NCBI GenBank assembly: GCA_934098665.1
Contig: CAKOOO010000002.1
Location: 20,374-84,373, forward strand
Direction: 5' to 3'
Source: an uncultured Bacilli bacterium
Lineage (GTDB): Bacteria > Bacillota_I > Bacilli_A > RF39 > UBA660
DNA: 64,000 nt
Part shown: in pieces, positions 6,605-52,487 of the stretch
How positions within the stretch are numbered: the stretch's first letter is position 1
Layout of the letters: every line of letters begins with the position of its first letter
Made by a program: the position numbers and the translations under genes
Notes under the pieces: model-generated
The model's database searches: none
What the model saw: only the letters and a program-made list of their open reading frames with translations
Told to the model about the DNA's origin: nothing

Positions 6605-7091
6605 TATCATCTAAAGTATTATTATTTGATACTGAGTTATTTTTATTTGAGGTTGTAACAATAAAACTACATGTATATAGTTTATTTGTAAGTGCTCCAT
6701 CACCAATATCTGTGCAAGTAATATCTTCGATTTTAGCACCTTTTATAGTCCATGTTTTTTTAATTTCACCTTTTACTTTATATTGAAATTTATATACATC
6801 TTTATCATTTTCTTTTACTGTATAATAAGAAATTTCATAAGTATTTTCGCCTGTTAAAGTAAGAGTTTTACCGCTTATATTATAACTAGTTATATTATCA
6901 CAAATTAAATCATCTTCGATAGTAGTAACAATATCAATACGGTTTGCTTGATTAGAATTTGCTATAAAATCATTATTTCTTTCAAAAGTTACACTAGAAA
7001 GTAAGTTATATAAAAACAGTAAAACAACTGATATTAAAGCAACACTTACAATAAGTTCAACCATTGTCATACCTTTATTATTTAGTTTCAT
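6573..7091 (-). CDS. type IV pilin-like pseudopilin (prepilin N-terminal cleavage/methylation motif)
   Basis: MKLNNKG|MTMVELIVSVAL is a class III signal peptide with Glu at +5. The ATG overlaps the upstream stop codon (ATGA), so M4 of the track ORF was chosen as the start. Confidence 0.75.
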   Translation of the reverse strand: MKLNNKGMTMVELIVSVALISVVLLFLYNLLSSVTFERNNDFIANSNQANRIDIVTTIEDDLICDNITSYNISGKTLTLTGENTYEISYYTVKENDKDVYKFQYKVKGEIKKTWTIKGAKIEDITCTDIGDGALTNKLYTCSFIVTTSNKNNSVSNNNTLDDIILTFANKVE

Positions 7092-8041
7092 TTTATACAT
7101 TTACCTCCAATAGTTTTTTCTGTAAAAACATAAGGATTATTAATTGTTCCCTCACCTATAAATAAAGCATCAGCACTTATATTAATTACAGGTTTAACCT
7201 TTGAATTTGATGATACAAGCCTATCAGTACTTGACGAGCCATTTAAATAATATACATATGCACCACCACTATATCTTGAGGGACTCATTGTATATGTATT
7301 ACTTACCTGCCCCGTTAAAAGGCTTTCCTCTATTGTTGGAAGTCCTATATTTAAATTTAATGTATCTAAAGTATTATCACAAGAAAAACTTTGAATATTA
7401 TTTTTATTTATACCGTAGCTATAAAAATACTGCGTTGTAGTTCCATAGCCGTCCGCTAAATTATTATTTCCCTTACTTGGGGTTAAATATGCAATGCGGT
7501 TAGAGCAATAATTTTCATATTTAATATATTTTTCATATTTAGTACCAGAAAAGTTAGTATTATACCAATCATCTAAAAATATTTTTACAGTGCTATCATT
7601 TAATAAACCATTACCATTTTTATTTGAGTATTTAAATCCTACATAAACGGCATCATTACTAATGCTATTAAACATGCTAGATAAATCTTCACCATTATAA
7701 ATAAGTCTAAAACTACCATCACTATTTTTTAAAAGTACTTTCCAAGTAATATCTTTACCTATATTATTTCCAGTTTGATATTTACCAAACTTAACATAAA
7801 TAGGCTCTTTATAATAAGTAATACCTGATAAAGTGCCTTTATTTTTATTATCTAAATTTAATGGACTACTTCCAACACTTTCTGTAACAAAATAAGATTT
7901 TTTTAAATCGTTTTTTATTAATTTAAAATTTAAACGATTATTTGAATAAGTAGTCATGATTAAAACAAGTAGCATGCAAAATACTAGAAAAAATGAATAA
8001 ATCATTGAAATTGAAATTACACCTTTTTTATCTTTAATCAT
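7088..8041 (-). CDS. minor pseudopilin carrying the lectin-like module shared with the large surface-protein family
   Basis: MIKDKKG|VISISMIY leader-like N-terminus without E5. Internal WKVLLKN..FRLIYNG, YVGFKY and DDWYN motifs, and C-terminal KVKPVINIS...GEGTINNPYVF, parallel those of the four large paralogs. Confidence 0.6.
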   Translation of the reverse strand: MIKDKKGVISISMIYSFFLVFCMLLVLIMTTYSNNRLNFKLIKNDLKKSYFVTESVGSSPLNLDNKNKGTLSGITYYKEPIYVKFGKYQTGNNIGKDITWKVLLKNSDGSFRLIYNGEDLSSMFNSISNDAVYVGFKYSNKNGNGLLNDSTVKIFLDDWYNTNFSGTKYEKYIKYENYCSNRIAYLTPSKGNNNLADGYGTTTQYFYSYGINKNNIQSFSCDNTLDTLNLNIGLPTIEESLLTGQVSNTYTMSPSRYSGGAYVYYLNGSSSTDRLVSSNSKVKPVINISADALFIGEGTINNPYVFTEKTIGGKCIK

Positions 8042-8873
8042 AATACACCCACGATAGATAATATGCATTTTCACACGCCATTGAATAGCTTATATCATCC
8101 TGATTATAATAATCATTTAATTTATTTTCACAACCATTAAGGTTACCTTCACATACTTTATTTTGAATACATGATTTATAACCACCTTTTACTAAACCAG
8201 AGTTTTCATCCCCATTTTTCTTTTCATAATATAAAGCAATTAATATTCCATTACCATTTGCATCATTTTTATTTAAAGTAAGCATAAACTCCCTTAAATT
8301 ACTATCAGAGTATTTTTCAGTATAATCTTTAAAATTAATGCACTTATTTTTTAAACTTTCATCAGTAAAACCCTCTACATCTTCATTAACACATTTTTTT
8401 ATATTAGATATATCTTCGGTTTTAAGATATATAAGCATTTTAAATTTATAAAGCTTATTTGCATTATTTATATATGAATTATCATTAAATATTGATATAT
8501 AATTTTCCGCAGAACAGAAAAGTTTTCCATCACTATCCTTTTCATATTTGGTGCAAAATTTTGACTCTGTATTAAATAAATAAACAAAATTATATTTAAG
8601 GGAGTTTTTATTAATATCTTTATCAAGTGCATCCCCACCATCATAATTATTACCATTACGAGCATTGTCAAAAACGCTTGTATTAGCACTTTCAATTACT
8701 GCATCACGAATATATAAAGTTTTATAAATATATGATATATCATCATAATAAAGTCTTTTTCTTTCATCTAAAACTCTTTTACTAAAATTTGAATACAAAA
8801 AAATAAGAGTTGTAGTTAAAACAACAGTAACAATAATTGTTTCTATAAATACAAAACCCTTATTATTTTTCAT
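8034..8873 (-). CDS. type IV pilin-like pseudopilin
   Basis: MKNNKG|FVFIETIIVTVVL prepilin motif with E5. First gene of an overlapping three-gene operon. Confidence 0.7.
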   Translation of the reverse strand: MKNNKGFVFIETIIVTVVLTTTLIFLYSNFSKRVLDERKRLYYDDISYIYKTLYIRDAVIESANTSVFDNARNGNNYDGGDALDKDINKNSLKYNFVYLFNTESKFCTKYEKDSDGKLFCSAENYISIFNDNSYINNANKLYKFKMLIYLKTEDISNIKKCVNEDVEGFTDESLKNKCINFKDYTEKYSDSNLREFMLTLNKNDANGNGILIALYYEKKNGDENSGLVKGGYKSCIQNKVCEGNLNGCENKLNDYYNQDDISYSMACENAYYLSWVYYD

Positions 8874-8881
8874 ATCACACC

Positions 8882-8925
8882 TACTATAACAATTATAAAC
8901 TAAAAATAGTCTAATTTCAATAATT
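8882..8925 (-). promoter_or_regulatory. promoter cassette copy a (TTGAAA-17-TATAAT) in front of the pseudopilin operon
   Basis: On the minus strand the -35 TTGAAA lies at 8915-8920 and the -10 TATAAT at 8892-8897, with a 17-nt spacer. The same ~45-nt block recurs at 10597 and 13001. Confidence 0.55.
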
Positions 8926-10583
8926 TAATAAATCATAGGAACTTTACTATTTTCGATGGCTTCCATTTTTTCTTTTTCATATAATAAATCAAGATATACA
9001 CGATAATATTTTTTAAACAAATTTTCTAGATAAGTAGTTATTTCTTTTCCTGATGAAAATATTGAATAATCTATTCCATTAAATGTATAAGATGGATCTA
9101 AAAGAAGTATTTCTTTTTTTATTTTATCTATTTCCTTTAGTAAATTATTTATATATTTAGTATAAATATTTTCTTGAGTTTTATCCATTTGCTCTAAAGT
9201 TTTATTATTTATAGTACTTATCACATCTATTTTTGATACATTACCACTTACTTTTATTAAAATTGGCATTAAATATTTTCTAAAAGTTTTAATAAAACTA
9301 TTTGCATCATTATAATCAAGTGTTTTTTTACCATATAAATAATCAATTACATTTTGCCTTTCACTCATTAAATAAACTATTATTTCTTTTTTAGTATCTT
9401 CATCATTACTATATTTTAAAATGTCAACAAGTTTTTCTAAATCACTAATAATTTCATAATTTGAACTAACCTTTTCACCTCTTAATGTTTTAATCATATT
9501 TTGAATTAAATTCATAATATCATAGTAATTTCCATTTTTTTCATAAATTTGATTTAAACTACTTTTTAAATTTTCTAAACTTATAATTGCATTTGTATAT
9601 AAAGTATTATTTGTATTTAATGAAAGAGTATCATAACTACTAAATAAACCATTATTATACGTGCTAACTATAGCATCAACTTTTTGTTTTACTTCGTTTT
9701 TATTTATTCCTATAAAGTCAATACTTGTTACTTCTTTTGCTAAAGATAATATTTTTTTAGCTTCACTTGTTAATTTATCTGAAAAAAGATTATTATCATT
9801 TACATTAGTATTTTCATAACTTTTTTCTCTAACTACAGTAAACTCTTTTTTAATAGGAAAACTTGGAAACAAACTAGTTATTAATTCATCACTAATTACT
9901 GGACCTTTTAAAGTAAAACTTTTTACATATAAAGTTGAAAGTATTCTTTTGCTATCAAGATATTCCTTTACTGGTTTACAGTTTCTAGCATCATCAAACT
10001 TATATAAATTATGTTTATAGATAAAATCTATTGAACCATATTTATTATAACTTTTTTCATTTTTTTCAAGCTTTGAATATATTAAATTAAAAAATCTATT
10101 TATATCATTAACAAATTTAATTAATTCTTTTTCATTATTATAAGTTAACGTAAAATTAGAGCCCGCAAAAAGGTTCAAACAACGATTATCACCACTTAAA
10201 TAAAGTCTTGAGAAAAGGTCAAAATCACAAGGAATTGTAATATTATTTATTGGTCTTAAACTTCTAAAAGCATATTCATAAACCTTATTTGTTTTATTAT
10301 GAACAGTTAAACTATTAATTTTAACATCATAAAAACAAAATCCATAACTATCTATTTCTAAATTAGTGCCATCTAAATCAATATCTAAATTCATATCCCC
10401 TGTAACACGTTTATCTAATATTATTTCCCCACATGCATAACTGCATACTCTTCTATATCCACTATGAAGAGTAATTTTATAATTCTCATTTTTAAGTAGT
10501 CTTTGCAAGCTATAAGGCACCCTAAAAGATTTAACATCACCATAGTCATTTACAATTTCTAAATTAATAATATTTTCTTCCAT
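8925..10583 (-). CDS. hypothetical cytoplasmic protein, paralog of 10648-12987
   Basis: 552 aa with no signal peptide. The C-terminal ~450 aa are colinear with the neighbouring gene (for example ...ILLLDPSYTFNGIDYS.FSSGKEI..YLENL.KKYYRVYLDLLYEKEKME). Confidence 0.7.
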   Translation of the reverse strand: MEENIINLEIVNDYGDVKSFRVPYSLQRLLKNENYKITLHSGYRRVCSYACGEIILDKRVTGDMNLDIDLDGTNLEIDSYGFCFYDVKINSLTVHNKTNKVYEYAFRSLRPINNITIPCDFDLFSRLYLSGDNRCLNLFAGSNFTLTYNNEKELIKFVNDINRFFNLIYSKLEKNEKSYNKYGSIDFIYKHNLYKFDDARNCKPVKEYLDSKRILSTLYVKSFTLKGPVISDELITSLFPSFPIKKEFTVVREKSYENTNVNDNNLFSDKLTSEAKKILSLAKEVTSIDFIGINKNEVKQKVDAIVSTYNNGLFSSYDTLSLNTNNTLYTNAIISLENLKSSLNQIYEKNGNYYDIMNLIQNMIKTLRGEKVSSNYEIISDLEKLVDILKYSNDEDTKKEIIVYLMSERQNVIDYLYGKKTLDYNDANSFIKTFRKYLMPILIKVSGNVSKIDVISTINNKTLEQMDKTQENIYTKYINNLLKEIDKIKKEILLLDPSYTFNGIDYSIFSSGKEITTYLENLFKKYYRVYLDLLYEKEKMEAIENSKVPMIY

Positions 10584-10647: not shown

Positions 10648-12987
10648 TCATTTAATCAAAGGTACTTTACTATTTTCAAGAGTTTCCATTTTTTCTTTTT
10701 CATATAATAAATCAAGATATACACGATAATATTTTTTATATAAATTTTCTAAATAATCTATTATTTCTTTTCCTGATGAAAATAATGAATAATCTATTCC
10801 ATTAAATGTATAAGATGGATCTAAAAGAAGTATTTCTTTTTTTATTTTATCTATTTCACTTAATAACATTTTAATATAACTATTTGTATTTTCTTTTGTT
10901 TTATTATTCATTTCATTTAAGGCATAATTTTTTATATTATCAAGTACATCTATTTTTGATACATTACCACTTACTTTTGTAAGAATAGGAACTAAATAAA
11001 TCCTAAACTTTCTTATAAAACTATTTATATCATTATAATCTATTTCTTTTTTACCACATAAATAATCTATTATATTTTGTTTTTCACTTTCTAAATAAGA
11101 AATAATTTCATTTTTTGTTGTATCATCTTTACTATATTTTAAAATATTTGCTAAAGTATCTAAATCTTTTAAAATTTCATAGTTGGGTTTTACTTCTTCG
11201 CCATTTAGTTTTTTAATCATATTTTCAATTAAATCTAATATATCATAGTAACCAATTTTTTCTTCAAAATTATGATATAAAGTATCTTTATAGTTTTCTA
11301 ATTTTAAAATAGTATTTGTATAAAGCATATTATTTGAGCTTAATGATAAACCTTCACTCACTTTTAAATTACTATTATACTCTAATATAATCTCATTTAC
11401 ATCTTGTTTAACTTGGTTTTTATCAATACCAATATATTCAATGCTCATTATCTCTCTTACTAAATCAAGTATATGCTGTGCCTCTTTTGTAAGTGTTTGA
11501 TTATCACTAATATTTTCTTTCTTTTCAGTTTTATTTATAAAATTAAATTTAACCCAATTATGCTTTTCAAAAAATGATAAAGCTTTTTTTGTATTTATTT
11601 TAGGACCCTCAAAAGTAATATGTGTTGCCCCAATTTTATTAAATAAACTATCATAATTAGCACCATATGATAAGAAATCACAATATGAAAATTTATATAG
11701 TTCATGTTTATAAATAAAATCGATTTTATTATTTGAATATTTGTAATTAATGGCGTTTTTATAATAATTATCTGAAATTTTTGTAAATAAATCTGTAATT
11801 CTTTGTACGTCTTTCAAAAAAGATATAAGTTCTTTTTCACTTGTATAACTAATAGTTAAATATGCTCTACGAAATAAATTACTAGCCGTTTTATTCCCAC
11901 TTAAATAAAGACTTGTAAATAACTTAAAATCACATGGCATTTTAATACTATAAGCACCCCTATATGAATATTTATCTTTTTTACAAAAAACATTATCCTC
12001 TAAAGAAATGGTTTTGGCATTAATATTTATACTTTCAAATATAACATCCATATCTGAAGAAGAAAAATCAAAAGCATGTGATGAAATAAATACATCATCA
12101 CCCTCTATATTAATATTTACCGTAGCTTTTTCTTTAAAAGAATTTTTAAATAACTCTGAAGATGCATTACTAGAAATTACTTTAGCATTTGAAATATTTA
12201 TATCATATTCTTTTTCATCAAGTGAATATAGCTTTCCGTTACTATCCATTACAATTTCACCTTCATAAGGAAGATAAAAACTATTTATTTCATCATATAA
12301 AGTTTCATTGCAAATTTCAATCTTACCAAATATACTATTAATTTTATCATCTAAAATTTCGTTTAGAAAATATTGATTTAAAAAATTATAGCCTTCATAT
12401 TCAAAATCACTAGCTAAAGTATCTGTATAAAAACCTGCAATAATATCTTTACATATTAAAATATTTTTTTCACTATCTTTTTTCCATATAAGTGGTTTTA
12501 CTTTTACAAAAACCTTTACATCATCGCCATTATTTCTCATCCAAAAATAAGCATATTTTTCCCCATTATAAGTAAAAGTTGGAGCTCTTTTCACTTCATC
12601 ATTTACAGGTATGTGATACTCAAAATCCCAACATTTCGAAGCATCTTTTAGTTTGCTAATAAGATGCTTATCATAAATAATTTTGCTCGGATAAAACCCA
12701 AGAGGATATTCATCATTATCTAAATATTTTATAGAGTTTTCTTTTAAAAAAGATTCAATAAAGCCAGTTGTTCTAATAACAGGTCTTATTCCATAATATT
12801 TTTCATCTTTGCCCTTTTCATAAGAAGTTTTTTCTTTTTTACTTACTAAATTTTCACTTATAAAAAAAGTATTATTTTCGCCATAAATATATTTCGTTAA
12901 ATCATTTTGAGTAGCACCATCTTTAAAAGGCTCATCACTAGTTAAAAATGTTACATAAACTCTTTTTTTAATTGCAAAATCATCCAT
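10648..12987 (-). CDS. hypothetical cytoplasmic protein, longer paralog with an extra N-terminal domain
   Basis: 779 aa. The N-terminal ~230 aa contain YYGIRPVIRT and KPLIWKKD, reminiscent of the GVRPVISL module of the surface family. The rest parallels 8925-10583. Confidence 0.7.
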   Translation of the reverse strand: MDDFAIKKRVYVTFLTSDEPFKDGATQNDLTKYIYGENNTFFISENLVSKKEKTSYEKGKDEKYYGIRPVIRTTGFIESFLKENSIKYLDNDEYPLGFYPSKIIYDKHLISKLKDASKCWDFEYHIPVNDEVKRAPTFTYNGEKYAYFWMRNNGDDVKVFVKVKPLIWKKDSEKNILICKDIIAGFYTDTLASDFEYEGYNFLNQYFLNEILDDKINSIFGKIEICNETLYDEINSFYLPYEGEIVMDSNGKLYSLDEKEYDINISNAKVISSNASSELFKNSFKEKATVNINIEGDDVFISSHAFDFSSSDMDVIFESININAKTISLEDNVFCKKDKYSYRGAYSIKMPCDFKLFTSLYLSGNKTASNLFRRAYLTISYTSEKELISFLKDVQRITDLFTKISDNYYKNAINYKYSNNKIDFIYKHELYKFSYCDFLSYGANYDSLFNKIGATHITFEGPKINTKKALSFFEKHNWVKFNFINKTEKKENISDNQTLTKEAQHILDLVREIMSIEYIGIDKNQVKQDVNEIILEYNSNLKVSEGLSLSSNNMLYTNTILKLENYKDTLYHNFEEKIGYYDILDLIENMIKKLNGEEVKPNYEILKDLDTLANILKYSKDDTTKNEIISYLESEKQNIIDYLCGKKEIDYNDINSFIRKFRIYLVPILTKVSGNVSKIDVLDNIKNYALNEMNNKTKENTNSYIKMLLSEIDKIKKEILLLDPSYTFNGIDYSLFSSGKEIIDYLENLYKKYYRVYLDLLYEKEKMETLENSKVPLIK

Positions 12988-13000
12988 ATCTAATACCCTT

Positions 13001-13044
13001 TACTATAACAATTATAATCTAAAAATAGTCTAATTTCAATAATT
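13001..13044 (-). promoter_or_regulatory. promoter cassette copy c
   Basis: -35 at 13034-13039 and -10 at 13011-13016 on the minus strand, with a 17-nt spacer. Confidence 0.55.
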
Positions 13045-20301: not shown

Positions 20302-20329
20302 AAAAAAATGATGAAATATTTCATCATTT
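20302..20329 (-). terminator. rho-independent terminator of surface protein gene A
   Basis: Perfect palindrome aaatgatgaaa-ta-tttcatcattt followed by a U-run on the minus strand. Confidence 0.65.
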
Positions 20330-22739
20330 ATTCTACCACAAAAGGATTAGTATATGAGCCATCACCTGAAGATATTGTGGTGCCAGGTTTTAAAGATATC
20401 GATGGTCGCACACCCCGCACGTTGACCACGAGGTTGTTGTTCCACCCACCGGAGTCCACCGCCCCGACGGCGGCGTAGCCGTTACCGTTGAGGAAGCTGT
20501 TGGGAGAACCTAACAAAACATATTGTCCACTGTTAAAGTAATGACTACTTCCATAACCAGCTAAACTTAATTCTGGTACTGTTAATAATCCTATTGGATA
20601 TTTTAACCTTGCTTTTGCATTATTTACACTAAATCTATCTGTTTCATTTGCACATAATAAACTTTTATTACTTGTACTATTATTTTTAAAATATAAAACT
20701 TGACTACTTGTACTTCCGTTTGGATTCCAACCAGTTGAAGATAAATTAGTTATGGTTCTATCATTACAGAATACTGTATCTTCTAGTTTATTTGTATAAC
20801 TTGTCATATTGTTTTTATACCAATTATCTATATATGCTTTTATTGTACTATCATCAGTATTTACATCATCTGCATATAACATTTCATTTAAAGCGTCTTC
20901 TACTGATTTTCCTCCAGTTAAGGTTATGTAATATGAAGCACCATTACTAATATAATATACATAATAAATTGATGTACAACTATTACCATTTGTTAAGCAT
21001 GTATAATGATGGGTATTTACATTACTACTATTAGCAATAAATGTATCTGAATTTATTGTTACTGTATCGCTTAATGTATATGTCCCATTTGTATATGTAA
21101 ATGATGAGCCAAATACATAATCTTGATTTGCTAATGTTGTTCCATCTGTTACTCCTCCAGATAGCGAGTAATAATATATTATTGTTCCACTATTTGAAAC
21201 TATATAATAGGGATTAGAACAAGATGTTGATGTGCTATTACATGTATATCTTCCAGATAATGTACTTGATGAAGACACTGTTATATTACTAGGGTTTACT
21301 AAATTGTAAGTACCATTATCATATGTTACACCAGTGCCAATTACTTTTGTACCAACTAAATTTACACGATTAATTATTTTCTTAGATGAATATGCATATA
21401 CTTTATTTTCATTATACATATATCCTACATATGCTGGTGAATTATATTTACTATTAAATGCACTTGTTCCTATTATTGTATCTGTTCCTGTATTATTACA
21501 TGATTTTATTACATCTCCTACTGCTTTGCCAATACTAAATACTACATTATCATTATTTTTTGATACACTACTATCTTTAGAATATTTTACGGTAATAACA
21601 TCTGAAGTTGTAAGACCTTTAAGAGCAATTGTTCCTGAATCTGTAAACTTACCAAGTGATGTGGTACCATTTATAAATTCAGCTTTATCACAGCATGTTT
21701 CTGATGATACAGAGTAATTTAAATAATAATCTCCAGCTTCTTTTACACTAAATGTTATTGTTCCCGTTTTACCATGGTCATGATTTGTACTTGTCCATGT
21801 TTTAATTGTTTCATCAAATGTATATGGATATGTAGCATCATTTGTTACATTTATATATTCATCTTGATTAATAGGTTCTGTATTGACTATATCTTTTACA
21901 GCACCATTATAAACAATTTTTACTCCACCTGTATCTGTGGTTCTTACTATTTTCCAGCATTTATCTGCAAATAGTACATTATTATTTTCTACATTGCCAG
22001 TATAGTAATATACTTTATTTGCATATTTTGTTGTATCTTCATAATCACTTCCATTATATAGTTTTACATACTCATCACCATTTAAATATTTTCTTGCAAT
22101 TATAGAGTATAAATTCTTTGCATATTCCTTAAAATCACAATCTATATTTTCTACTTTAATATTACCACCAAAGGTTTTACCTATTATAGAGTTATCTTGA
22201 GCTATATTTAGATTATAGTATCTTAAATTAAAGTTCCATGTTTCACTTATACTTGTTTGTGATGTTGTTGTTTCTATTGAACCAGAATAAATTTTTATTT
22301 TACTGCTTCCTGCTAAAGAAACATCGTTAAAACTATTACCTTGATTAGAGATTCCTCTTACAGCATATTCTTTTAAAGTGCTTTGTGATGGTGTATAAGA
22401 AGTGCTTGGAACGTATACTATATCATAAGAACAATATACTGGGGCATCACCTTTTGCATCAAGTGTTAAAGTTAAATTTGAATTACTTTCTACATATGAA
22501 GTATAATCATTTGACGCACTCCCCACATCTAAATCACTTTCATTTATTGCTAATGCTACATTTTGATTTCCACTTGTATTAAATGTATAAAACTTTGTAT
22601 CTATCCTTGAGGTTGCATTATTATTTGTATTTATTTTCATGCTACCAAAAAATGCATAAGATGCACTTACTAATATAATAAGAGCTATTACTGATGCTAT
22701 TATAGTTAATATTTTCTTCTTATTATCACTTTTTTCCAT
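20328..22739 (-). CDS. large surface protein A of the lectin-like paralog family (carries GC-rich variable island)
   Basis: N-terminal signal-anchor KKKILTIIASVIALIILVSASYAFFG. Family motifs CWKIVRTTDTGGVKIVYNG, PAYVGYMYNE, IDNWY, FCNDR, YPIGLLTVPE and GVRPSISLKPG...GDGSYTNPFVVE. Start set at the ATG at 22739, after GAAAGG. Confidence 0.8.
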   Translation of the reverse strand: MEKSDNKKKILTIIASVIALIILVSASYAFFGSMKINTNNNATSRIDTKFYTFNTSGNQNVALAINESDLDVGSASNDYTSYVESNSNLTLTLDAKGDAPVYCSYDIVYVPSTSYTPSQSTLKEYAVRGISNQGNSFNDVSLAGSSKIKIYSGSIETTTSQTSISETWNFNLRYYNLNIAQDNSIIGKTFGGNIKVENIDCDFKEYAKNLYSIIARKYLNGDEYVKLYNGSDYEDTTKYANKVYYYTGNVENNNVLFADKCWKIVRTTDTGGVKIVYNGAVKDIVNTEPINQDEYINVTNDATYPYTFDETIKTWTSTNHDHGKTGTITFSVKEAGDYYLNYSVSSETCCDKAEFINGTTSLGKFTDSGTIALKGLTTSDVITVKYSKDSSVSKNNDNVVFSIGKAVGDVIKSCNNTGTDTIIGTSAFNSKYNSPAYVGYMYNENKVYAYSSKKIINRVNLVGTKVIGTGVTYDNGTYNLVNPSNITVSSSSTLSGRYTCNSTSTSCSNPYYIVSNSGTIIYYYSLSGGVTDGTTLANQDYVFGSSFTYTNGTYTLSDTVTINSDTFIANSSNVNTHHYTCLTNGNSCTSIYYVYYISNGASYYITLTGGKSVEDALNEMLYADDVNTDDSTIKAYIDNWYKNNMTSYTNKLEDTVFCNDRTITNLSSTGWNPNGSTSSQVLYFKNNSTSNKSLLCANETDRFSVNNAKARLKYPIGLLTVPELSLAGYGSSHYFNSGQYVLLGSPNSFLNGNGYAAVGAVDSGGWNNNLVVNVRGVRPSISLKPGTTISSGDGSYTNPFVVE
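20404..20510 (-). other. candidate DGR variable region (VR-A)
   Basis: 107 nt at about 65% G+C (hand count) inside a ~25% G+C gene. It encodes GSP-NSFLNGNGYAAVGAVDSGGWNNNLVVNVRG-VRP. Confidence 0.5.
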
Positions 22740-22764
22740 AACAAACCTTTCTATTATCAATTAA

Positions 22765-27695: not shown

Positions 27696-29486
27696 TTAGC
27701 TCTCTACTACATATGGATTATTATAAGTTCCATCACCGGAAAGTTTAACATCTTTTGAAAGTGAAATAACTGGTCTAACACCTAATATCATACTATCCTC
27801 GTTATTTACCGTTTTTTCATAAAAGGAAAAACTTAAGCCAAAAACCATAGCGGCTCCTTCATCGTTAGCAACATCTGGTGATCCAATTAAAATGCCATCT
27901 GTATCTTCAACTGTATAATAAAATAAATAAAATGCTCGATTTTCTTTTCCAGATCCAGATACTGCACCAGCCATTGCTACTTCGTCTGCGGTTATTAAGC
28001 CTACTGGATAAGTTAATGCACCATTTCCACTACTTGAACCTACTGTAAATTTATCACTTGCATTAGGACATGTTAGAACTGGCTTTTTATTTGCGACTAG
28101 TCTTCCATATGCTCCATAATAAATAAACTCATTATTTGATGTAAATGGGTTTATCTCACCATAATCACCATTTTCACTTCGTGAAGCACTTCTATCATAG
28201 CAAAATGGACTATCAGCTATTAATTTTGACGTGCTCTCATCAGTATAAAGCGAAGTTGTTGTATACCAATTATCAATATAAGTTTTTATTGCACTATCAT
28301 TTGTAAGACCATGTTGCTTACCTATTTCATATTTATATCCTACATATTCTGGTTTGTATACATTAGTGTTAAAATCACTTTTTCCAATATATATATTATC
28401 ATTTAGCATTACTACCTTTTGATCTTCGGTTGGAGCTGTTGTACCAGAATAAATCATTCGTACACTGCCATCACCATTTATTCTTATTATTCGCCAGTAT
28501 ATATCGTCACCTATATTCCACAAATATGAACAGTTATAGTTATAGGAACTAGAAGAATTACATTCTTCTAGAGAAGTATATTTTTTATATGATGAAGAAC
28601 TGGCTGAATAATATCCACGTACTGGACCATTAGATGAATATTTTCCAAACTTTATCCAGTTATTATCTACCGCACCTCTAAAATAGTAAGATGTTCCTTG
28701 GTCGTCTTTAGCTGCATACATGCCATCATTTGTTGTTGCCACTGCTGTAAAATCAGGACTTTCTTTTGTTTCAATTGCATTAGCACCACCATTTTTTGCA
28801 AGTATAATATCTTTGGCTTTTGGCACTTCTCCAACATTGCAATTATTATTTTCTACATATATTTTACCTGTAAATGATTTATTACCTAGTTGTGCTTGGT
28901 CTACATTCAAATTATAATATCTACCTGTTATATTTATATTTTGCACTACACTTGTACCTTCACTTGTTATTGTAGCATTTTTTACAAGGGTTTTCTTTGC
29001 TCCAACAGTTGTTGTCTTCGGTGTCCAAGTGCTATCATAAGCAAAATTTGTTTCACTTGCAAAGCTATTTGTTCCACTTGGACTAGAAACCTCTAAAGTA
29101 ATTTCTTTAGTTGCTCCATTTGTTACTGCAACAGTGCTTCCATATATTTCACTAGAAAGATCATATTCATACACTACATCATATGTACATGTTGTTATTA
29201 CATCTGGTACTCCAGTAAGATTTACTGTAAGTGTAGCGGTATTTTCGGCAGCTAGTCCAGTATTACCCTTAAACATTCCACTTGTAGGTACTATTACATT
29301 TAAATTTGCACTTGTTGCTATAAATGAAGTATCTCCTATTGTACTTGCATGAATATTTACTGCTACCTTATTTTCAAGATTTACTGTAAACATACCAAAA
29401 TATGCAAACGATGCACTAATTAAAAGCACTAAAAGAAACATTCCAGATATTATCCAACCTATATTTACTTTCTTTTTATTTTTCAT
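27696..29486 (-). CDS. surface protein D of the lectin-like paralog family
   Basis: N-terminal anchor GWIISGMFLLVLLISASFAYFG. YWRIIRINGDGSVRMIYSG, PEYVGYKYE, IDNWY, FCYDR, YPVGLITADE and GVRPVISLS...GDGTYNNPYVVE. Confidence 0.8.
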   Translation of the reverse strand: MKNKKKVNIGWIISGMFLLVLLISASFAYFGMFTVNLENKVAVNIHASTIGDTSFIATSANLNVIVPTSGMFKGNTGLAAENTATLTVNLTGVPDVITTCTYDVVYEYDLSSEIYGSTVAVTNGATKEITLEVSSPSGTNSFASETNFAYDSTWTPKTTTVGAKKTLVKNATITSEGTSVVQNINITGRYYNLNVDQAQLGNKSFTGKIYVENNNCNVGEVPKAKDIILAKNGGANAIETKESPDFTAVATTNDGMYAAKDDQGTSYYFRGAVDNNWIKFGKYSSNGPVRGYYSASSSSYKKYTSLEECNSSSSYNYNCSYLWNIGDDIYWRIIRINGDGSVRMIYSGTTAPTEDQKVVMLNDNIYIGKSDFNTNVYKPEYVGYKYEIGKQHGLTNDSAIKTYIDNWYTTTSLYTDESTSKLIADSPFCYDRSASRSENGDYGEINPFTSNNEFIYYGAYGRLVANKKPVLTCPNASDKFTVGSSSGNGALTYPVGLITADEVAMAGAVSGSGKENRAFYLFYYTVEDTDGILIGSPDVANDEGAAMVFGLSFSFYEKTVNNEDSMILGVRPVISLSKDVKLSGDGTYNNPYVVES

Positions 29487-40675: not shown

Positions 40676-41953
40676 TTACTTTTTTTTTACACATATTTTT
40701 ATTCCCACAAAAAGCAAAAGAGTTACAAGTATTATTAAATATTTATAAGGAAATGAAAATGTATTTTCAAATGTAATATCCTTTATATTATTTTCACTAT
40801 CTATATCATCATTATTAAAAATATCATTACTAATAAGTTCATTATTAATATTTTTTAAATTACCATTTTCTTCATTATTATCATTATCAATATTTTCATT
40901 ATTATCATTTTCTAAATTACCATTTTCATCATTATTAATATTTTCATTATTTTCTTCATTTTGAATAACCTTTTTATTTAACTTTAATTTAATTAAAGAG
41001 TCATTTATATTAACATTTTCATTAAAGTCTTCATAAATATCATCACCCTTTATAAAGATATTATAAGTTCCTTCAAATAATTTAAGATTTATCATCCCAT
41101 TTTCATTAGAGCAATATTTTTCATCATTAATATTTATACATTTATTTACAAGCTTATCTTCATCATAAACTAAAATACTTGTGCTTGTTTTATCACCATT
41201 TATTTCCATTACATACTTTTTATCGTTAAAATTAGTAGTTGAAAAAAGTGTATTACTACCATTTGTAACTAAAAATTCAAAAAGTGGTTCTGCTATAGGA
41301 AGTACTTTTTTTCGAAAAACAAGTTTATGCTTACCCTCTTTTCCTTTAACAGTTAATTTATCATTTATAATATTTACTTCAAGGTTATCTTCATTATCAT
41401 ATAAATAAAAATTATCTAAATAATCAAACTGAAATTCTTTTATTTCACCTGGCTCTATATTAACTGTGTTATTCCAAAATGAAGGACCTTTTATAACTGA
41501 AAAATATTTATCTTTTATTTTCTGATAAAAATCTTCGTAAATTTCATATTTTTCTTTAGTATTTGGATAGCAAAAATAAAACTCTTTTTCTGGATATAAA
41601 TATTCCCATATAAGTCTTTGAGTTAAAGAGTGATATACTCTTTCATCAACGTTTAATTTATCCCTTATTTCCATAAAGGCAAAATATAAATCTTTTATAT
41701 CTTTGGAATAATTACTTTTTTCATAAGTAATTTTTTTATAATTTTCTACATTTGTATCAAGCATATCTCTTGTTTGGGGTACTAAAAAAAATGTTTCTCT
41801 ATGTTCAAGCCAAACATAAGTAAGTTCATACATATTTCCATCACTTGAACATAAATTTTGATGAGTTGTATTTATTAAACTTGACACACTTATAGCGTGC
41901 ACATTTTTAGATAAAGTAAACAATATAGCCAAAAATATTAAATATTTTTTCAC
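40676..41953 (-). CDS. secreted surface protein with a sorting-signal-like C-terminus and an N/D/E-rich spacer
   Basis: Signal peptide MKKYLIFLAILFTLSKNVHA (GTG start after GAAAGGAAA). C-terminal hydrophobic stretch plus a KKK tail. TQRLIW resembles the Gln motif of thioester-domain adhesins (weak). Confidence 0.65.
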   Translation of the reverse strand: MKKYLIFLAILFTLSKNVHAISVSSLINTTHQNLCSSDGNMYELTYVWLEHRETFFLVPQTRDMLDTNVENYKKITYEKSNYSKDIKDLYFAFMEIRDKLNVDERVYHSLTQRLIWEYLYPEKEFYFCYPNTKEKYEIYEDFYQKIKDKYFSVIKGPSFWNNTVNIEPGEIKEFQFDYLDNFYLYDNEDNLEVNIINDKLTVKGKEGKHKLVFRKKVLPIAEPLFEFLVTNGSNTLFSTTNFNDKKYVMEINGDKTSTSILVYDEDKLVNKCININDEKYCSNENGMINLKLFEGTYNIFIKGDDIYEDFNENVNINDSLIKLKLNKKVIQNEENNENINNDENGNLENDNNENIDNDNNEENGNLKNINNELISNDIFNNDDIDSENNIKDITFENTFSFPYKYLIILVTLLLFVGIKICVKKK

Positions 41954-42031
41954 TATTATTTTCCTTTCTATATTTCCTATCACCAAATATAAAAAGTTTT
42001 TACGAGCAATTTAAATATAACAAAATATTTT

Positions 42032-42585: not shown

Positions 42586-42612
42586 AAAAAAAATGATAGA
42601 TTACCTATCATT
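42586..42612 (-). terminator. rho-independent terminator of surface protein gene C
   Basis: aaugauag-guaau-cuaucauu hairpin plus a U-run on the minus strand. Confidence 0.6.
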
Positions 42613-44731
42613 AATTAATAATATATGGTTTAGTATACGAGCCATCTCCTGAAAACACTATAGTTTCAGGTTTTAGTGATATGACAGGTTTTACACCAAT
42701 AGATGCCATTGCTGTTCCTCGTGATACAGTATCGTATAACGTTGATTGCATTAAGATTCTTTGATATAATACTGGTGATTGTAGCCATATACCATATCCT
42801 GTATATAAATAATGTTTTTTTGCTTCCACATCTTTAGTTGCCAAATGTGCTTCTGGTGCAGAAAGAAGTCCAACTGGATATGTTAAAGCCCCATTACCAT
42901 TACTAATGTTAACTGTAAATCTATCATTTATATTTTCACAAAAAAGACTATAAGTAACATCGTTATTTTTAAATTTAAATGAATCACCTGTTGTTTGTTT
43001 ACTTAATGACCAACTACCAAGATCAGTATTGCTTCTATCATTACAATATATTGTATCTTCTAATTTATCTGTATAGTTTATCATATTATTTTCATACCAT
43101 GCATCTACTACTTTTTTTATTGCACTGTCCTTTTTATTAACATCATCCGCATATAACATTTCATTTATTGCATTATCTATTGACTTACCATTAGAAATTT
43201 TTATTGCAGAAATATCACTAGTGCCCTTATAATTGATATAATATATAGAACTACAAGTGTTTGATGAATTATAACAAGTAAAATGATAATCATCAATATT
43301 ACTATAATTTGAACGCCAAGTTTTTGCATTAACAGTGATAGTATCCGTTAAAACATATTTACCATTTGTATAAGTAAAAGATTTACCAAAAACATAATCA
43401 ATATCATAATAAGATCCATTTGTTATACCGTCTTTCAAAGTAAAATAATTAAATTGCCTACCGCTTGTTGAAAAAATATATCTTACTTTTTTACAAGAAG
43501 TTGAGGAACCATCACTACAAATATATTTTCCAACAAATGTACTTAAATCACTACTTGTTGTAATATTTACAGAAGTTGGATTTACAAGACTATATAATCC
43601 ATTACTATATGATACTGAGGTTCCAAACATAGTAACATTGCTTGATGTCATATAGTTCATAATTTCATAGTAGTTATCTTCATATGCAATATTATACATA
43701 TACCCAGCATATGCTAAAGAGTTTTGTTCTTCATTATAAGGAGAAAAAGCAATTTGAGCATCATAATATGTATTATTACAAGATTTATATTTATTAATAG
43801 TTTTTCCAAAACTAAATATAACATTATTTCTTGTTCCTGAAGTATAACTTTGATTTCGAGTAAATACTACTTTAATTGTATTTGAGGTAGATAAATTATC
43901 TAAAATAATTTGTCCAGAAATATTACCAACATAGCTACCAAGTAATTCACTATCTTTATAAATATTTATATTCATATCATTTATATTTGCATAAGTTGAA
44001 ACGTCATAATTTAATGCGAAGTCACCATTTTCTGGAACATTAAATGATATTGCTGAACTATTTGTTCCTGTATTTGTACTTGTCCATGTTTTATTTGTTT
44101 CATCAAAAGTATATGGGTATTGTGAATTATTTATTAAATTTTTGTATTGCGATAGTTCAAATAAATTTAAATCGGCAACATTTTTTTGGCTACCATTATA
44201 AATCATTTTAACTCCACCAGTACCTGTAGTTCTTACAATTTTCCAACAATACCCACCAAAAAGAACATTATTATTTTCTACAGCTCCATTAAAGTAATAT
44301 ATATTATTTGCATAATTTGTTGTATCCCCATAATCTGCACCATTATAAATTTTTACAAAATTATCATTGTCTTGATATCTTTTTGCTATTGTATCATATA
44401 GTTTGGCACTATAATCAAAGTATAAATAGCATTTATCACTTCCTATAAAACTAAAACCCACTACCCCGTTTACATTATCATAACTAATTACTTCACCATT
44501 ATTTTCACAATGTGTTTTTTCTTTATTTAATGTATAATTTCCTTTGGGTATATCTTTTGAACTTGATTTTGTATAATCAGTTGCACCATCTTCTTTTATC
44601 ATTATAGATAATTTTTCTTCTTTAATTGGGTTATTTTTACTTAAACTATTTTGCTTAAATTTATAGGTTAAAATTAAACTTAAAATCCCTACTCCCAAAA
44701 ATACGAACAACACTATTTTTTTCTTTTTCAT
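42611..44731 (-). CDS. surface protein C of the lectin-like paralog family
   Basis: MKKKKIVLFVFLGVGILSLILTYKFKQNS anchor, nearly identical to gene B. CWKIVRTTGTGGVKMIYNG, LAYAGYMYN, VDAWY, YCNDR, YPVGLLSAPE and GVKPVISLKP...GDGSYTKPYIIN. ATG at 44731 preferred over the track GTG. Confidence 0.8.
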   Translation of the reverse strand: MKKKKIVLFVFLGVGILSLILTYKFKQNSLSKNNPIKEEKLSIMIKEDGATDYTKSSSKDIPKGNYTLNKEKTHCENNGEVISYDNVNGVVGFSFIGSDKCYLYFDYSAKLYDTIAKRYQDNDNFVKIYNGADYGDTTNYANNIYYFNGAVENNNVLFGGYCWKIVRTTGTGGVKMIYNGSQKNVADLNLFELSQYKNLINNSQYPYTFDETNKTWTSTNTGTNSSAISFNVPENGDFALNYDVSTYANINDMNINIYKDSELLGSYVGNISGQIILDNLSTSNTIKVVFTRNQSYTSGTRNNVIFSFGKTINKYKSCNNTYYDAQIAFSPYNEEQNSLAYAGYMYNIAYEDNYYEIMNYMTSSNVTMFGTSVSYSNGLYSLVNPTSVNITTSSDLSTFVGKYICSDGSSTSCKKVRYIFSTSGRQFNYFTLKDGITNGSYYDIDYVFGKSFTYTNGKYVLTDTITVNAKTWRSNYSNIDDYHFTCYNSSNTCSSIYYINYKGTSDISAIKISNGKSIDNAINEMLYADDVNKKDSAIKKVVDAWYENNMINYTDKLEDTIYCNDRSNTDLGSWSLSKQTTGDSFKFKNNDVTYSLFCENINDRFTVNISNGNGALTYPVGLLSAPEAHLATKDVEAKKHYLYTGYGIWLQSPVLYQRILMQSTLYDTVSRGTAMASIGVKPVISLKPETIVFSGDGSYTKPYIIN

Positions 44732-44778
44732 ATACTCCACTTTTTCTCCGTAAATACGGCATATAATTTTCTTATATT

Positions 44779-50360: not shown

Positions 50361-52487
50361 TTATTCTATTACAAAAGGATTAGTATATGTGCCATCACCT
50401 GAGGATATTTCTGTCCCTTGTTTAAGTGATATTGAAGGTCGCACGCCACTCGCGCTGGCCACGAAGTTGTAGTGCAACCCACTGTAGTGCACCACCCGGA
50501 CGCCTACGTGGTTGCCGTCAAAGTTGTGGGGAGAACCAAGCCAAACTTCTTGTCCACTATAAAAGTAATGACTACTTCCACTTCCATAACCAGACAATCT
50601 TAATTCTGGTGCTGTTAATAATCCTATAGGATATTTTAATTTTGCTTTTGCATTATTTACACTAAATCTATCTGTTTCATTTGCACATACTAAACTCTTA
50701 TTACTTGTACTATAATTTTTAAATTCTAATGGTGTTGTACTTCCGCCGTCTGGGTTCCAACCTTCTAAACTTGATATACTTCTATCATTACAAAATATTG
50801 TATCTTCTAGTTTATCATCATATTTATCTTTTATATTTTCTTCATACCAACTATCTATATATGCTTTTATAGTACTATCTTTTTTATTTACATCATCTGC
50901 ATATAACATCTCATTTAATGCATCACTTACTGACTTTCCCCCCGTTAAGGTTATGTAATATGGAGTACCATTATAAATATAATAAACGTAATAAATTGAT
51001 GTACAGCTATTACCATTTGTTAAACATGTATAATGGTGGGTATTTACTTTACTACTATTATTAATAAATGTATCGGAATTTATTGTTACTGTATCAGTTA
51101 ATGTATATGTTCCATTATATGTAAAGGATTTGCCAAATACATAATCTTGATTTGCTAGTGTTGTTACATCTGTTGTTCCTCCAGAAAGTGAGTAATAATA
51201 TATTGTTGTTCCACTATATCCCGCTATATACCATAAACTATAACATGTTCCTGTTGTATTTGAACTATTACATGTATATTTACCTACTAAAGTACTAATA
51301 TTAGAACTTGACACAGTTATTGTTGCTGCATTAGTAAGTGTATATTTATTACTTGCATAGGTTGCTCCATCTCCATATGCTTTTTGTCCACTAAAATATG
51401 TATTATTAATTATTGTCTTAGATGAAGATGGATATACTTTGCTTTCATTATACATATATCCTACATATGCTGGTGAGTTAGAATAATTATTAAATGTACT
51501 TGTTCCTATTTGTGAATTCTGTCCTGTATTATTACATGTTTTTATTATACTATTTGCTTTTCCGAAACTAAATATTACATTATTTCTGTTTCCATCTAAA
51601 GGCGGCATTTGTCTAGTATAAACTAATTTTACTACATTTGATGTAGCAAGGTCTTTAAAAACAATTTGTCCAGTTGCTACTCCAGTATATTTTCCTTGAC
51701 TTACATCATCTTTAAATATTTCTACATTTATATAATCAATATAGTCATCCATTGATAAATCATAATTTATTACATAATCTCCGCTTGTTGGTGCCGTAAA
51801 TGATATTGTTGAACTATTTGCTCCTGTATTTGTACTTGTCCATGTTTTATTTGTTTCATCATATGTATAGGGATATGATATATCATTAGTTAAGTTTGTA
51901 TATTCTGACTGATTTAATAAAGTGTAGTCATCTATAGTTGGTCTTCCACTATATACTATCTTAACTCCACCTGTATCTGTAGTTCTTACTATCTTCCAGC
52001 ATTTATCAGCAAATAAAACATTGTTATTTTCTACAGCTCCGTTAAAGTAATATATATTGTTTTCATATGACGTTGTATCTCCATAATCTGCTCCATTATA
52101 TAGTTTTACAAATACATCATCTCTATTATATCTATTTTCAATTATATTGTATAAAGGTGGTACTATTTCATCAAAATATAAGAAACATTTATCTGTACCT
52201 ATAAAAGCAAAAGACACAGTACCTGTAGCATTATCATAACCTTCTATTTTACCATTATTTTTGCAATAACTTTTTTCTGTGTTCAATGTATAATCACCTT
52301 TAGGAATATCCTTTGAGCTTGATTTTGTATATTCTGTAGCACCAGATTCTTTTATCATTATAGATAATTTTTCTTCTTTAACAATTTTATTTTTACTTAA
52401 ACTATTTTGCTTAAATTTATAGGTTAAAATTAAACTTAAAACACCTACAAATAAAAATACGAACAACACTATTTTTTTCTTCTTCAT
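50361..52487 (-). CDS. surface protein B of the lectin-like paralog family (mosaic, carries GC-rich variable island)
   Basis: The N-terminal ~130 aa are nearly identical to gene C. The C-terminal ~250 aa are nearly identical to gene A, apart from the GC-rich island. Confidence 0.85.
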   Translation of the reverse strand: MKKKKIVLFVFLFVGVLSLILTYKFKQNSLSKNKIVKEEKLSIMIKESGATEYTKSSSKDIPKGDYTLNTEKSYCKNNGKIEGYDNATGTVSFAFIGTDKCFLYFDEIVPPLYNIIENRYNRDDVFVKLYNGADYGDTTSYENNIYYFNGAVENNNVLFADKCWKIVRTTDTGGVKIVYSGRPTIDDYTLLNQSEYTNLTNDISYPYTYDETNKTWTSTNTGANSSTISFTAPTSGDYVINYDLSMDDYIDYINVEIFKDDVSQGKYTGVATGQIVFKDLATSNVVKLVYTRQMPPLDGNRNNVIFSFGKANSIIKTCNNTGQNSQIGTSTFNNYSNSPAYVGYMYNESKVYPSSSKTIINNTYFSGQKAYGDGATYASNKYTLTNAATITVSSSNISTLVGKYTCNSSNTTGTCYSLWYIAGYSGTTIYYYSLSGGTTDVTTLANQDYVFGKSFTYNGTYTLTDTVTINSDTFINNSSKVNTHHYTCLTNGNSCTSIYYVYYIYNGTPYYITLTGGKSVSDALNEMLYADDVNKKDSTIKAYIDSWYEENIKDKYDDKLEDTIFCNDRSISSLEGWNPDGGSTTPLEFKNYSTSNKSLVCANETDRFSVNNAKAKLKYPIGLLTAPELRLSGYGSGSSHYFYSGQEVWLGSPHNFDGNHVGVRVVHYSGLHYNFVASASGVRPSISLKQGTEISSGDGTYTNPFVIE
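50437..50537 (-). other. candidate DGR variable region (VR-B)
   Basis: 101 nt at about 62% G+C (hand count). It encodes GSP-HNFDGNHVGVRVVHYSGLHYNFVASASG-VRP, at the same position as VR-A. Confidence 0.5.

What the first reader, a model, noticed from the sequence alone, without database searches (positions are those of the whole stretch)
50437..50537. Second GC-rich variable island (101 nt) at the same position in paralog B, 30 kb away and two codons shorter
This island has about 62% G+C. It encodes HNFDGNHVGVRVVHYSGLHYNFVASASG where paralog A encodes NSFLNGNGYAAVGAVDSGGWNNNLVVNVRG. The roughly 700 nt upstream and 70 nt downstream of the island are about 90% identical between A and B by eye, so divergence is focused on the island.

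Two VR-bearing targets 30 kb apart imply remote (trans) targets. The two single-codon length differences in the 5' half cannot be produced by DGR mutagenesis. Either two distinct template repeats exist, or one copy is an older, decaying target.

Paralogs C and D have ordinary AT-rich sequence at this position, so they are not targets.
Basis: partly seen in the sequence, partly recalled or inferred. Interest (0 to 1): 0.8.

Follow-up and report, generated by a model that had tools for sequence, protein, structure and literature searches.

The report
Retroelement-written variable tip of surface protein
The GC-rich patch is almost certainly the variable region of a surface-protein gene that a diversity-generating retroelement located somewhere else rewrites, which is a known kind of system, and the retroelement itself could not be found.

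Summary
Window 50437-50537 is 62.4% G+C in a 24.9% G+C window. It lies at the 3' end of a 708-aa gene (B, 50361-52487, minus strand). A sister island lies at the same place in paralog A.

I read it as a DGR (diversity-generating retroelement) variable region (VR). B belongs to a family of more than 2000 proteins from uncultured gut Bacilli. That family is hypervariable exactly between 'WLGSP' and 'GVRP'.

In relatives I found true template-repeat (TR)/VR pairs at this position, with mismatches almost only at TR adenines:
- L076 and L050 carry target-TR-avd-reverse transcriptase (RT) cassettes.
- In MAG CAKOMR01, one TR matches four VRs on three contigs.

Differences among VR-A, VR-B and an allelic VR-B' are enriched at the adenine columns of those foreign TRs.

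Relatives' TR/VR pairs show 3- and 6-nt indels in the AAC run, and the literature reports the same.

No cognate TR or RT was found in the window, in about 10 kb beyond each end, or in collection scans. Both VRs are invariant in near-clonal strains, but that also held in a control with a complete cassette. Whether the element is active or a fossil is unresolved.

Verdict: a new member of a known kind, of modest interest.

The parts
50361..52487 (-). Target gene B, 708 aa. It has an N-terminal hydrophobic helix (a likely membrane anchor or signal), beta-sandwich domains, and a C-terminal domain distantly like DUF6273 that carries the VR.
   Evidence: ORF and translation. AF2 model with mean pLDDT 86 and helix 4-30. 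Beta-sandwich/CBM-like Foldseek hits. Sub-threshold DUF6273 match covering profile positions 36-171 of 172. More than 2000 homologs.
50437..50543 (-). VR-B. This is the G+C-rich island 50437-50537 plus the TGGCTT just upstream, where TR homology starts in relatives. It encodes WLGSP-HNFDGNHVGVRVVHYSGLHYNFVASAS-GVRP.
   Evidence: 62.4% G+C. Homologous to verified VRs and TRs. Hypervariable in the family. Differs from the allelic VR-B' at 21 nt, 16 of them at codon positions 1 or 2.
50437..50447 (-). 3' boundary motif GGCGTGCGACC, a candidate for the G+C-rich part of an IMH-like element.
   Evidence: The same motif, GGCGTGCG(T/A/C)CC, ends the G+C-rich VRs across the family and occurs in the TRs of L050 and L076. 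In L010, L011, L019 and L051 the G+C-rich stretch ends at this motif too.
20328..22760 (-). Target gene A. The ORF tool gives 810 aa from a TTG start. Public gene calls give 803 aa, starting at 22739.
   Evidence: P0132 is 803/803 identical.
20404..20510 (-). VR-A, 107 nt, 65.4% G+C. It is 6 nt longer than VR-B within the (AAC)n tract.
   Evidence: Its DNA is identical in four other strains, and one further strain has two changes.
42611..44740 (-). Paralog C, 709 aa. It has no G+C-rich VR and ends in GVKP instead of GVRP.
27696..29486 (-). Paralog D, 596 aa. It has no G+C-rich VR. The locus carries three very different alleles among strains.
7127..7597 (-). A distant fifth copy of the C-terminal domain (29% identity), inside ORF 7088..8074.
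   Evidence: tblastn.

Best explanation
The island is the variable region (VR) of a target gene of a diversity-generating retroelement (DGR).

How it works (inferred from the known DGR mechanism):
- A G+C-rich template repeat (TR), located outside this window, is transcribed.
- A DGR reverse transcriptase, working with Avd, copies it and misincorporates opposite template adenines.
- The cDNA replaces the segment TGGCTTGGTTCTCCC...GGCGTGCGACC of gene B, and likewise of gene A. This recodes about 28 residues of the ligand-binding tip of a C-terminal lectin-like domain on a cell-surface protein.

Why the island stands out: its sequence is dictated by the TR and not by the genome's AT mutational bias.

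The two-codon length difference between VR-A and VR-B lies in the (AAC)n tract. It is the kind of slippage indel that this DGR lineage produces.

Shown directly: homology to verified VR/TR/RT systems; the position-specific pattern of variation; one TR serving several remote VRs in a sister genome.

Inferred: that a cognate TR and RT exist, or recently existed, in this genome. I put extant versus lost at roughly 55:45. The confidence given here is for a DGR origin of the island, whether or not the element is still active.
For: 1. Across more than 2000 homologs, the stretch between WLGSP and GVRP is hypervariable while its flanks are conserved.
2. Relatives have true TR/VR pairs at exactly this position, with mismatches almost only at TR adenines:
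 - L024: 12 of 13 mismatches at TR adenines.
 - L076: 19 of 20.
 - L050: 17 of 18.
 - L076 and L050 also have the TR followed by an avd-like gene and an RT with RVT_1.
3. In MAG CAKOMR01, one TR (L024 11742-11860) matches VRs on three contigs: L018 with 17 A-site against 4 other mismatches, L015 with 20 against 4, L022 with 21 against 0-1, plus its own VR. Unlinked targets are therefore normal in this clade.
4. Differences among VR-A, VR-B and VR-B' are enriched at columns where four foreign TRs carry A (odds ratios 3.2-4.7; Fisher p = 0.02, 0.0013, 0.0005).
5. B against B' in the VR differs at 7, 9 and 5 nt by codon position, with 12 nonsynonymous and 2 synonymous codons. The rest of the gene differs at 41, 46 and 83 nt.
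6. The same 3' motif GGCGTGCG(T/A)CC occurs in the family's VRs and TRs.
7. The G+C level of the island is 5.7 sd above the window mean, and only the two VRs reach it.
8. Remote targets, and 3n indels next to AAC, are documented for DGRs (PMC5758913; PMC8144416).
Against: - No TR-like copy exists in the window (ungapped scan; blastn with word size 7).
- There is no RT or avd homolog in the window (tblastn) and no RT-like YxDD ORF.
- There is no RT in about 10 kb beyond either end of the window in other strains' contigs.
- Degenerate TR/VR patterns found nothing in viral, genome or metagenome collections. The species seems absent from those collections, because its own VRs were not found there either.
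- VR-A is DNA-identical in four strains that differ by 7-9 SNPs elsewhere in the gene, and VR-B is identical in three contigs. This is weakened by a control: nine contigs with a complete cassette also share one VR.
- VR-A, VR-B and VR-B' also differ at 10-16 columns where foreign TRs have no A.
- The C-type lectin fold of the VR domain could not be confirmed. The Pfam hit is sub-threshold and Foldseek was dominated by another domain.
Confidence: 0.85

Rival explanations
1. Fossil VR. The islands were written by a DGR in an ancestor, but the cassette (TR/RT) has been lost or inactivated in this species. VR-A and VR-B are now ordinary, frozen coding sequence that has not yet decayed towards AT. 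This is a sub-case of a DGR origin, and a rival only to the idea of a DGR that is still present.
For: - No TR or RT anywhere I could look.
- VR-A is invariant in 4 of 5 other strains. The fifth (L088) has only two point changes, not a rewritten VR.
- VR-B is invariant in 3 contigs.
- Relatives show decay of the system: a split RT in L105/L106, an RT C-terminal fragment next to a target in L031, and a TR with no RT within 10 kb in L024.
- Across the family, VR G+C runs in a continuum from 67% down to about 30%.
Against: - By my own count from the sequence, third codon positions in the island are about 79% G+C, in a genome of 25% G+C. That argues for recent templating.
- The invariance control with an intact cassette shows that near-clonal contigs are uninformative.
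- Only about 84 kb of a genome that I estimate at roughly a megabase was inspected.
Confidence: 0.35
2. A non-DGR cassette. On this reading the G+C-rich segment was acquired horizontally, or spread between paralogs by gene conversion, and it varies by ordinary mutation and diversifying selection on a binding loop.
For: - The B and D loci clearly undergo allelic replacement between strains. B alleles are 100%, 86% and 66% identical in the same synteny, and D has three alleles.
- The flanks of A and B are about 80-87% identical, so exchange between paralogs is conceivable.
- 10-16 differences fall outside predicted adenine columns.
Against: - It does not explain why the same segment in relatives is paired with AAC-rich TRs, avd and RT.
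- It does not explain the enrichment of differences at foreign-TR adenine columns.
- It does not explain the exact coincidence of the G+C boundary with the TR-homology boundary.
Confidence: 0.07
3. Assembly or binning artefact, or chance composition. On this reading a chimeric join or a random fluctuation created the G+C-rich patch.
For: The window comes from a metagenome-assembled genome.
Against: - The same sequence was assembled independently in several samples and studies (L001, L093, L094; L088-L092).
- The patch is in frame within a conserved ORF.
- It lies 5.7 sd above the window mean and occurs twice at homologous positions.
Confidence: 0.01

Closest known systems
Treponema denticola DGR (TvpA and its remote targets) and other non-phage 'Lineage 4' cellular DGRs (Wu et al. 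2018, PMC5758913; Nimkulrat et al. 2016, PMC4891356)
   Same: - A chromosomal DGR with several paralogous surface-protein targets, some far from the RT.
- The VR lies at the C-terminal end of the target.
- The TR is rich in AAC.
- TR and VR differ by indels in multiples of three.
   Different: - The host is an uncultured, very AT-rich gut Bacilli lineage.
- The target family has no Pfam assignment above threshold.
- Here the cassette itself has not been located.
DUF6273 / C-type-lectin-like DGR targets of gut phages (tentaclins and Mtd-like proteins; PMC10743442)
   Same: - A weak but full-length DUF6273 match over the VR-bearing domain.
- Some family members reach the precomputed DUF6273 annotation.
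- Same end motif, of the type ...SP...(G/A)VRP.
   Different: - All matches are below Pfam's threshold.
- The proteins are cellular, with an N-terminal anchor helix and housekeeping neighbours, not phage tail proteins.
- The fold was not confirmed here.
Bordetella phage BPP-1 DGR (Mtd / TR / Avd / bRT)
   Same: The same logic in relatives: a target-TR-avd-RT cassette with A-to-N mutagenesis.
   Different: - No G+C-rich hairpin was found downstream of the VR.
- The RT carries a C-terminal MutS_I-like extension.
- The targets are unlinked from the cassette.

Membership tests
Diversity-generating retroelement (DGR) target / variable region | A template repeat (TR) elsewhere that matches the VR, with mismatches essentially only at TR adenines | tested here: not met
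   - No TR in the window, in about 10 kb beyond each end, or in collection scans.
- The rest of the genome could not be read, so 'not met' applies only to the roughly 84 kb inspected.
- The feature is met for homologous VRs in L024, L050, L076 and L095.
Diversity-generating retroelement (DGR) target / variable region | A DGR-clade reverse transcriptase (usually with Avd) in the same genome | not testable with these tools
   - Absent from the window and its near flanks.
- Relatives have RVT_1 RTs with avd-like genes next to homologous targets.
Diversity-generating retroelement (DGR) target / variable region | Variation confined to TR-adenine positions, mostly codon positions 1 and 2 of AAC-type codons | tested here: met
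   - The test is indirect and uses the adenine columns of four foreign TRs: Fisher p = 0.02, 0.0013 and 0.0005.
- 16 of 21 B/B' differences are at codon positions 1 or 2, and 12 of 14 changed codons are nonsynonymous.
- Caveat: 10-16 differences lie at columns where the foreign TRs have no A.
Diversity-generating retroelement (DGR) target / variable region | VR at the 3' end of the target ORF, ending in a conserved G+C-rich IMH-like element shared with the TR | tested here: met
   The motif GGCGTGCG(A/T)CC at 50437-50447 is shared with the family's VRs and with the TRs of L050 and L076. Its function as an IMH is inferred, not shown.
Diversity-generating retroelement (DGR) target / variable region | Ongoing diversification: VR polymorphism among strains or within populations | tested here: inconclusive
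   - VR-A and VR-B are invariant in near-clonal contigs.
- A complete-cassette control is equally invariant.
- No read-level data were available.
C-type lectin-fold / DUF6273 variable proteins | The VR-bearing domain adopts the C-lec (DUF6273-like) fold with the VR on its surface | tested here: inconclusive
   - Pfam DUF6273 scores E = 0.008 and 16.4 bits, against a cut-off of 23.5. 6 of 20 family members hit it, all below threshold.
- A profile search of PDB sequences found nothing.
- Foldseek on the full-length model returned only beta-sandwich matches.
- The model of the isolated domain was poor, with pLDDT 46.

The most novel reading that the evidence does not exclude
This Bacilli clade may run a fully dispersed DGR in which the TR, the RT and up to half a dozen target genes are all unlinked. 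L024 is an example: its TR has no RT or avd within 10 kb. Alternatively, the window's two VRs may be written in trans by a DGR carried on a mobile element or phage that is absent from most strains. Host surface proteins would then be diversified by a visiting element.
Probability: 0.12. Interest if true: 0.6.

Novelty: new member of a known kind. Interest (0 to 1): 0.3.

Why it matters
- It identifies a large, unannotated family of surface proteins in uncultured, very AT-rich human- and animal-gut Bacilli as DGR targets. The family has more than 2000 members and no Pfam domain above threshold.
- In this clade most VRs sit far from their TR and RT, which is the class of target that large metagenome surveys say they miss (PMC8144416).
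- In such AT-rich genomes, a sharp island of about 100 nt and 60-65% G+C at a gene's 3' end is a simple marker for remote VRs.
- None of this changes what is known about how DGRs work.

Tried and rejected
1. Search for a TR inside the window. An ungapped identity scan at 50% or more, and blastn with word size 7, returned only the reciprocal A/B hit.
2. First collection pattern. It fixed third codon positions that later proved variable in VR-B' (CAG, TGG), so it could have missed a TR. I redesigned it as GGTTCTCCC N{21,39} GTC..., verified it on VR-A, VR-B and VR-B', and rescanned. There were 0 hits in viral contigs and 0 in metagenome contigs. The species' own VRs were not found in any scanned collection, so these negatives say little about the TR.
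3. Walking outwards from the window through edge proteins. No RT was found, and the G+C islands there are tRNA genes.
4. RT route. I searched homologs of the L076 RT and looked up two clusters, P0176 and P0229. Both belong to another species, and their TR does not fit VR-A or VR-B.
5. TR-peptide route. The small ORFs that span TRs are not in the protein collection, so I dropped it.
6. The three foreign TRs (L024, L050, L076), and later L095, tested as templates for VR-A and VR-B. They are homologous but show 22-29 or more mismatches at non-adenine positions, so they are not the cognate TR.
7. The idea that VR-A and VR-B are frozen because their IMH decayed (AT-rich sequence right after GCGACC). 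I rejected it as evidence, because several other lineages (L010, L011, L019, L051) have the same boundary.
8. A G+C-rich hairpin downstream of the VR, as in BPP-1. None was found, only transcription terminators.
9. Fold assignment of the VR domain. Inconclusive.
Full report
**1. Observation**

The window is 24.9% G+C. Positions 50437-50537 are 62.4% G+C. All 101-nt windows average 24.9% with sd 6.6%, and only this stretch and 20404-20510 (65.4%) reach 55% or more.

The island lies on the minus strand, near the 3' end of ORF 50361..52487 (708 aa, 'B'). It encodes GSP-HNFDGNHVGVRVVHYSGLHYNFVASAS-GVRP. Paralog A (20328..22760) has GSP-NSFLNGNGYAAVGAVDSGGWNNNLVVNVR-GVRP, which is two codons longer. 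Paralogs C (42611..44740) and D (27696..29486) are 36% G+C at the same place.

A-B identity is 83% over the 700 nt upstream, 79% over the 70 nt downstream, and 68% in the island.

**2. The protein and the organism**

- B has no Pfam domain above threshold.
- Its AF2 model is confident (pLDDT 86). It shows an N-terminal hydrophobic helix followed by beta-rich domains.
- Foldseek sees only CBM/CUB-like beta-sandwiches.
- The C-terminal 180-196 residues give a sub-threshold match to DUF6273 that spans the whole profile (E = 0.008; 6 of 20 family members). DUF6273 is described in the literature as a C-type-lectin-like domain targeted by DGRs in gut phages (PMC10743442).
- B has more than 2000 homologs, all from metagenomes or MAGs. 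The exact protein occurs in Hadza gut samples.
- Relatives in GTDB genomes are uncultured Bacilli, 'Mycoplasma sp. CAG:472', Anaeroplasmataceae and Erysipelotrichaceae MAGs from human, rumen and rabbit guts. They carry several paralogs per genome.
- Neighbours of B are housekeeping genes (Mn catalase, LexA, transketolase), so the gene is chromosomal.

**3. Evidence that the island is a DGR variable region**

Across 120 homologs, the segment between WL(G/A)SP and GVRP is hypervariable while both flanks are conserved. Most homologous genes in the 78 fetched loci carry a G+C-rich island at the same 3' position.

In several relatives, a second copy of the island lies a few hundred nt downstream of the gene and behaves as a template repeat (TR). 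It is rich in AAC, and its mismatches to the VR fall almost only at its adenines:

| Locus | Mismatches at TR adenines |
|---|---|
| L024 | 12 of 13 |
| L076 | 19 of 20 |
| L050 | 17 of 18 |
| L095 | a further pair of the same kind, mismatches not tallied |

In L076, L050 and L095-L104 the TR is followed by a 118-119-aa avd-like gene and by an RT of 438-485 aa with RVT_1.

**4. Remote targets in a sister genome**

In MAG CAKOMR01, the TR of L024 (11742-11860) fits four VRs on three different contigs:
- L018: 17 adenine-site mismatches against 4 others.
- L015: 20 against 4.
- L022: 21 against 0-1.
- L024's own VR.

No RT or avd lies within 10 kb of that TR. One TR serving several unlinked paralogous targets is therefore the normal state in this clade. 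This is what the window shows: two VR-bearing paralogs 30 kb apart and no cassette nearby. Remote targets are documented for non-phage DGRs (PMC5758913), and large surveys acknowledge that they miss them (PMC8144416).

**5. The length difference**

Verified TR/VR pairs in relatives contradict this:
- 3-nt indels in L050, L076 and L095.
- 6-nt indels in L022 and L024, which has 118- and 124-nt VR classes against one TR.
- All of these are within or next to AAC runs.

In a joint alignment with four TRs, the extra 6 nt of VR-A fall in the (AAC)n tract. The TRs themselves differ in length there. Wu et al. report TR/VR length differences in 7% of DGRs, 74% of them next to AAC. The A/B length difference therefore needs neither two TRs nor decay, although neither is excluded.

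**6. Indirect test of adenine-specific mutagenesis without the TR**

A strain with the same synteny (L002/L003) carries an allele B' that is 86% identical in protein. Its VR has the same length and differs at 21 nt.

| Region (B against B') | Differences at codon position 1 / 2 / 3 | Nonsynonymous : synonymous codons |
|---|---|---|
| VR | 7 / 9 / 5 | 12 : 2 |
| Rest of the gene | 41 / 46 / 83 | 78 : 57 |

I used the adenine columns of four foreign TRs as an independent predictor. Differences between VR-B and B', B and A, and A and B' are enriched at those columns (odds ratios 3.2-4.7; p = 0.02, 0.0013, 0.0005).

Two caveats apply:
- 10-16 differences fall at columns where the foreign TRs have no A.
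- Diversifying selection on the same loop residues could contribute.

**7. The 3' boundary**

The island ends in GGCGTGCGACC. The motif GGCGTGCG(T/A/C)CC closes the G+C-rich VRs throughout the family and is present in the TRs of L050 and L076.

In pairs with known TRs, homology runs about 10 nt further (..GCCGTTTCC). In L010, L011, L019 and L051, as in the window, the G+C-rich part stops at the motif. The shorter boundary is therefore a lineage feature, not evidence of damage. No hairpin like that of BPP-1 follows the VR.

**8. What was not found**

- No TR-like sequence in the window.
- No RT or avd in the window.
- Nothing in about 10 kb beyond each window end in other strains' contigs.
- Degenerate patterns that match VR-A, VR-B and VR-B' found nothing in viral or JGI metagenome collections. 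An earlier, stricter pattern found nothing in viral or GTDB genome contigs.
- Even the species' own VRs were absent from those collections, so the species is simply not represented there.
- Two RT clusters that I looked up belong to another species.
- TR-spanning ORFs are not in the protein collection.

**9. Active or fossil?**

VR-A is DNA-identical in four other strains that differ by 7-9 SNPs elsewhere in 2.5 kb. A fifth strain (L088) has two point changes (AAC to AGC, GCC to GAC), not a rewritten VR. VR-B is identical in three further contigs that are 0-3 SNPs away.

It is weak evidence, however. Nine contigs from nine samples that carry a complete target-TR-avd-RT cassette also share one VR. 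Consensus assemblies of near-clonal strains therefore do not reveal activity.

In favour of recent writing, about 79% of third codon positions in the island are G or C (my count from the sequence), in a genome of 25% G+C.

In favour of possible loss:
- Relatives show degraded systems: a split RT in L105/L106, an RT fragment in L031, and a TR without an RT in L024.
- Family VRs span a continuum of G+C content.
- At the B locus another strain carries an AT-rich allele, P0012, that is 66% identical.

I judge an extant remote DGR slightly more likely than a fossil, at about 55:45.

**10. Verdict**

The finding is real. Its core interpretation, a DGR variable region in a remote target, is well supported by homology and by the pattern of variation. 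The argument from indels is wrong, and the cognate template remains unfound. This is a new member of a known kind of system. Its interest lies mainly in annotating a large unknown surface-protein family of uncultured gut Bacilli, and in showing that most of its VRs are unlinked from their cassette.

Noticed in passing
L076:12924-14381, L050:3196-4611; many hits: The DGR RTs of this clade carry a C-terminal extension that matches Pfam MutS_I above threshold (23.8 and 25.6 bits against a cut-off of 20.6). About 40 of the 120 listed RT homologs are annotated RVT_1 plus MutS_I. Wu et al. 2018 noted this in only three RTs. In L105/L106 the RT is split into a 326-aa RVT_1 part and an 88-aa MutS_I part.
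   Followed up: partly
L024:11742-11860: A TR that fits four VRs on three contigs has no RT, avd or conserved spacer within 10 kb on either side. RimP, NusA and IF2 follow it. The TR therefore appears to be unlinked from its RT, or is left over from a lost cassette.
   Followed up: partly
window 50361-52487 and 27696-29486; L002, L087, L089-L091: Loci B and D are hot spots of allelic replacement among otherwise near-identical strains. B alleles of 100%, 86% and 66% identity sit in the same synteny, and the 66% allele has an AT-rich 'VR'. D has three very different C-terminal alleles (521, 572 and 596 aa).
   Followed up: partly
P0017, P0040, P0048, P0091, P0120: Longer family members (about 900-1130 aa) carry a second, tandem VR-type domain (...WLLSP...AVRPTFYL), so they may have two variable tips per protein.
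   Followed up: no
window 40807-40968 (ORF 40676..41986, minus strand): Degenerate short tandem repeats (spacings of 9-24 nt, about 71-86% identity) inside a 436-aa ORF, suggesting a repeat-rich, probably surface, protein.
   Followed up: no
window 8882-8925, 10598-10641, 13001-13044: A 44-nt element repeated three times (84-98% identity) just downstream of window ORFs 8925..10583 and 10648..12987 (both minus strand; the third copy lies upstream of the latter). These ORFs share a stretch of 83% identity (8931-9230 against 10654-10953). It may be a shared terminator or regulatory sequence.
   Followed up: no
L095-L104 (VR about 2925-3050, TR about 3360-3485): A complete cassette of ABC transporter, target (654 aa), TR, avd, RT, YhcG and MutS from nine samples has an identical VR in all nine, apart from one SNP in the IMH-like motif of L097. 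This shows that consensus assemblies can hide or lack DGR activity.
   Followed up: yes
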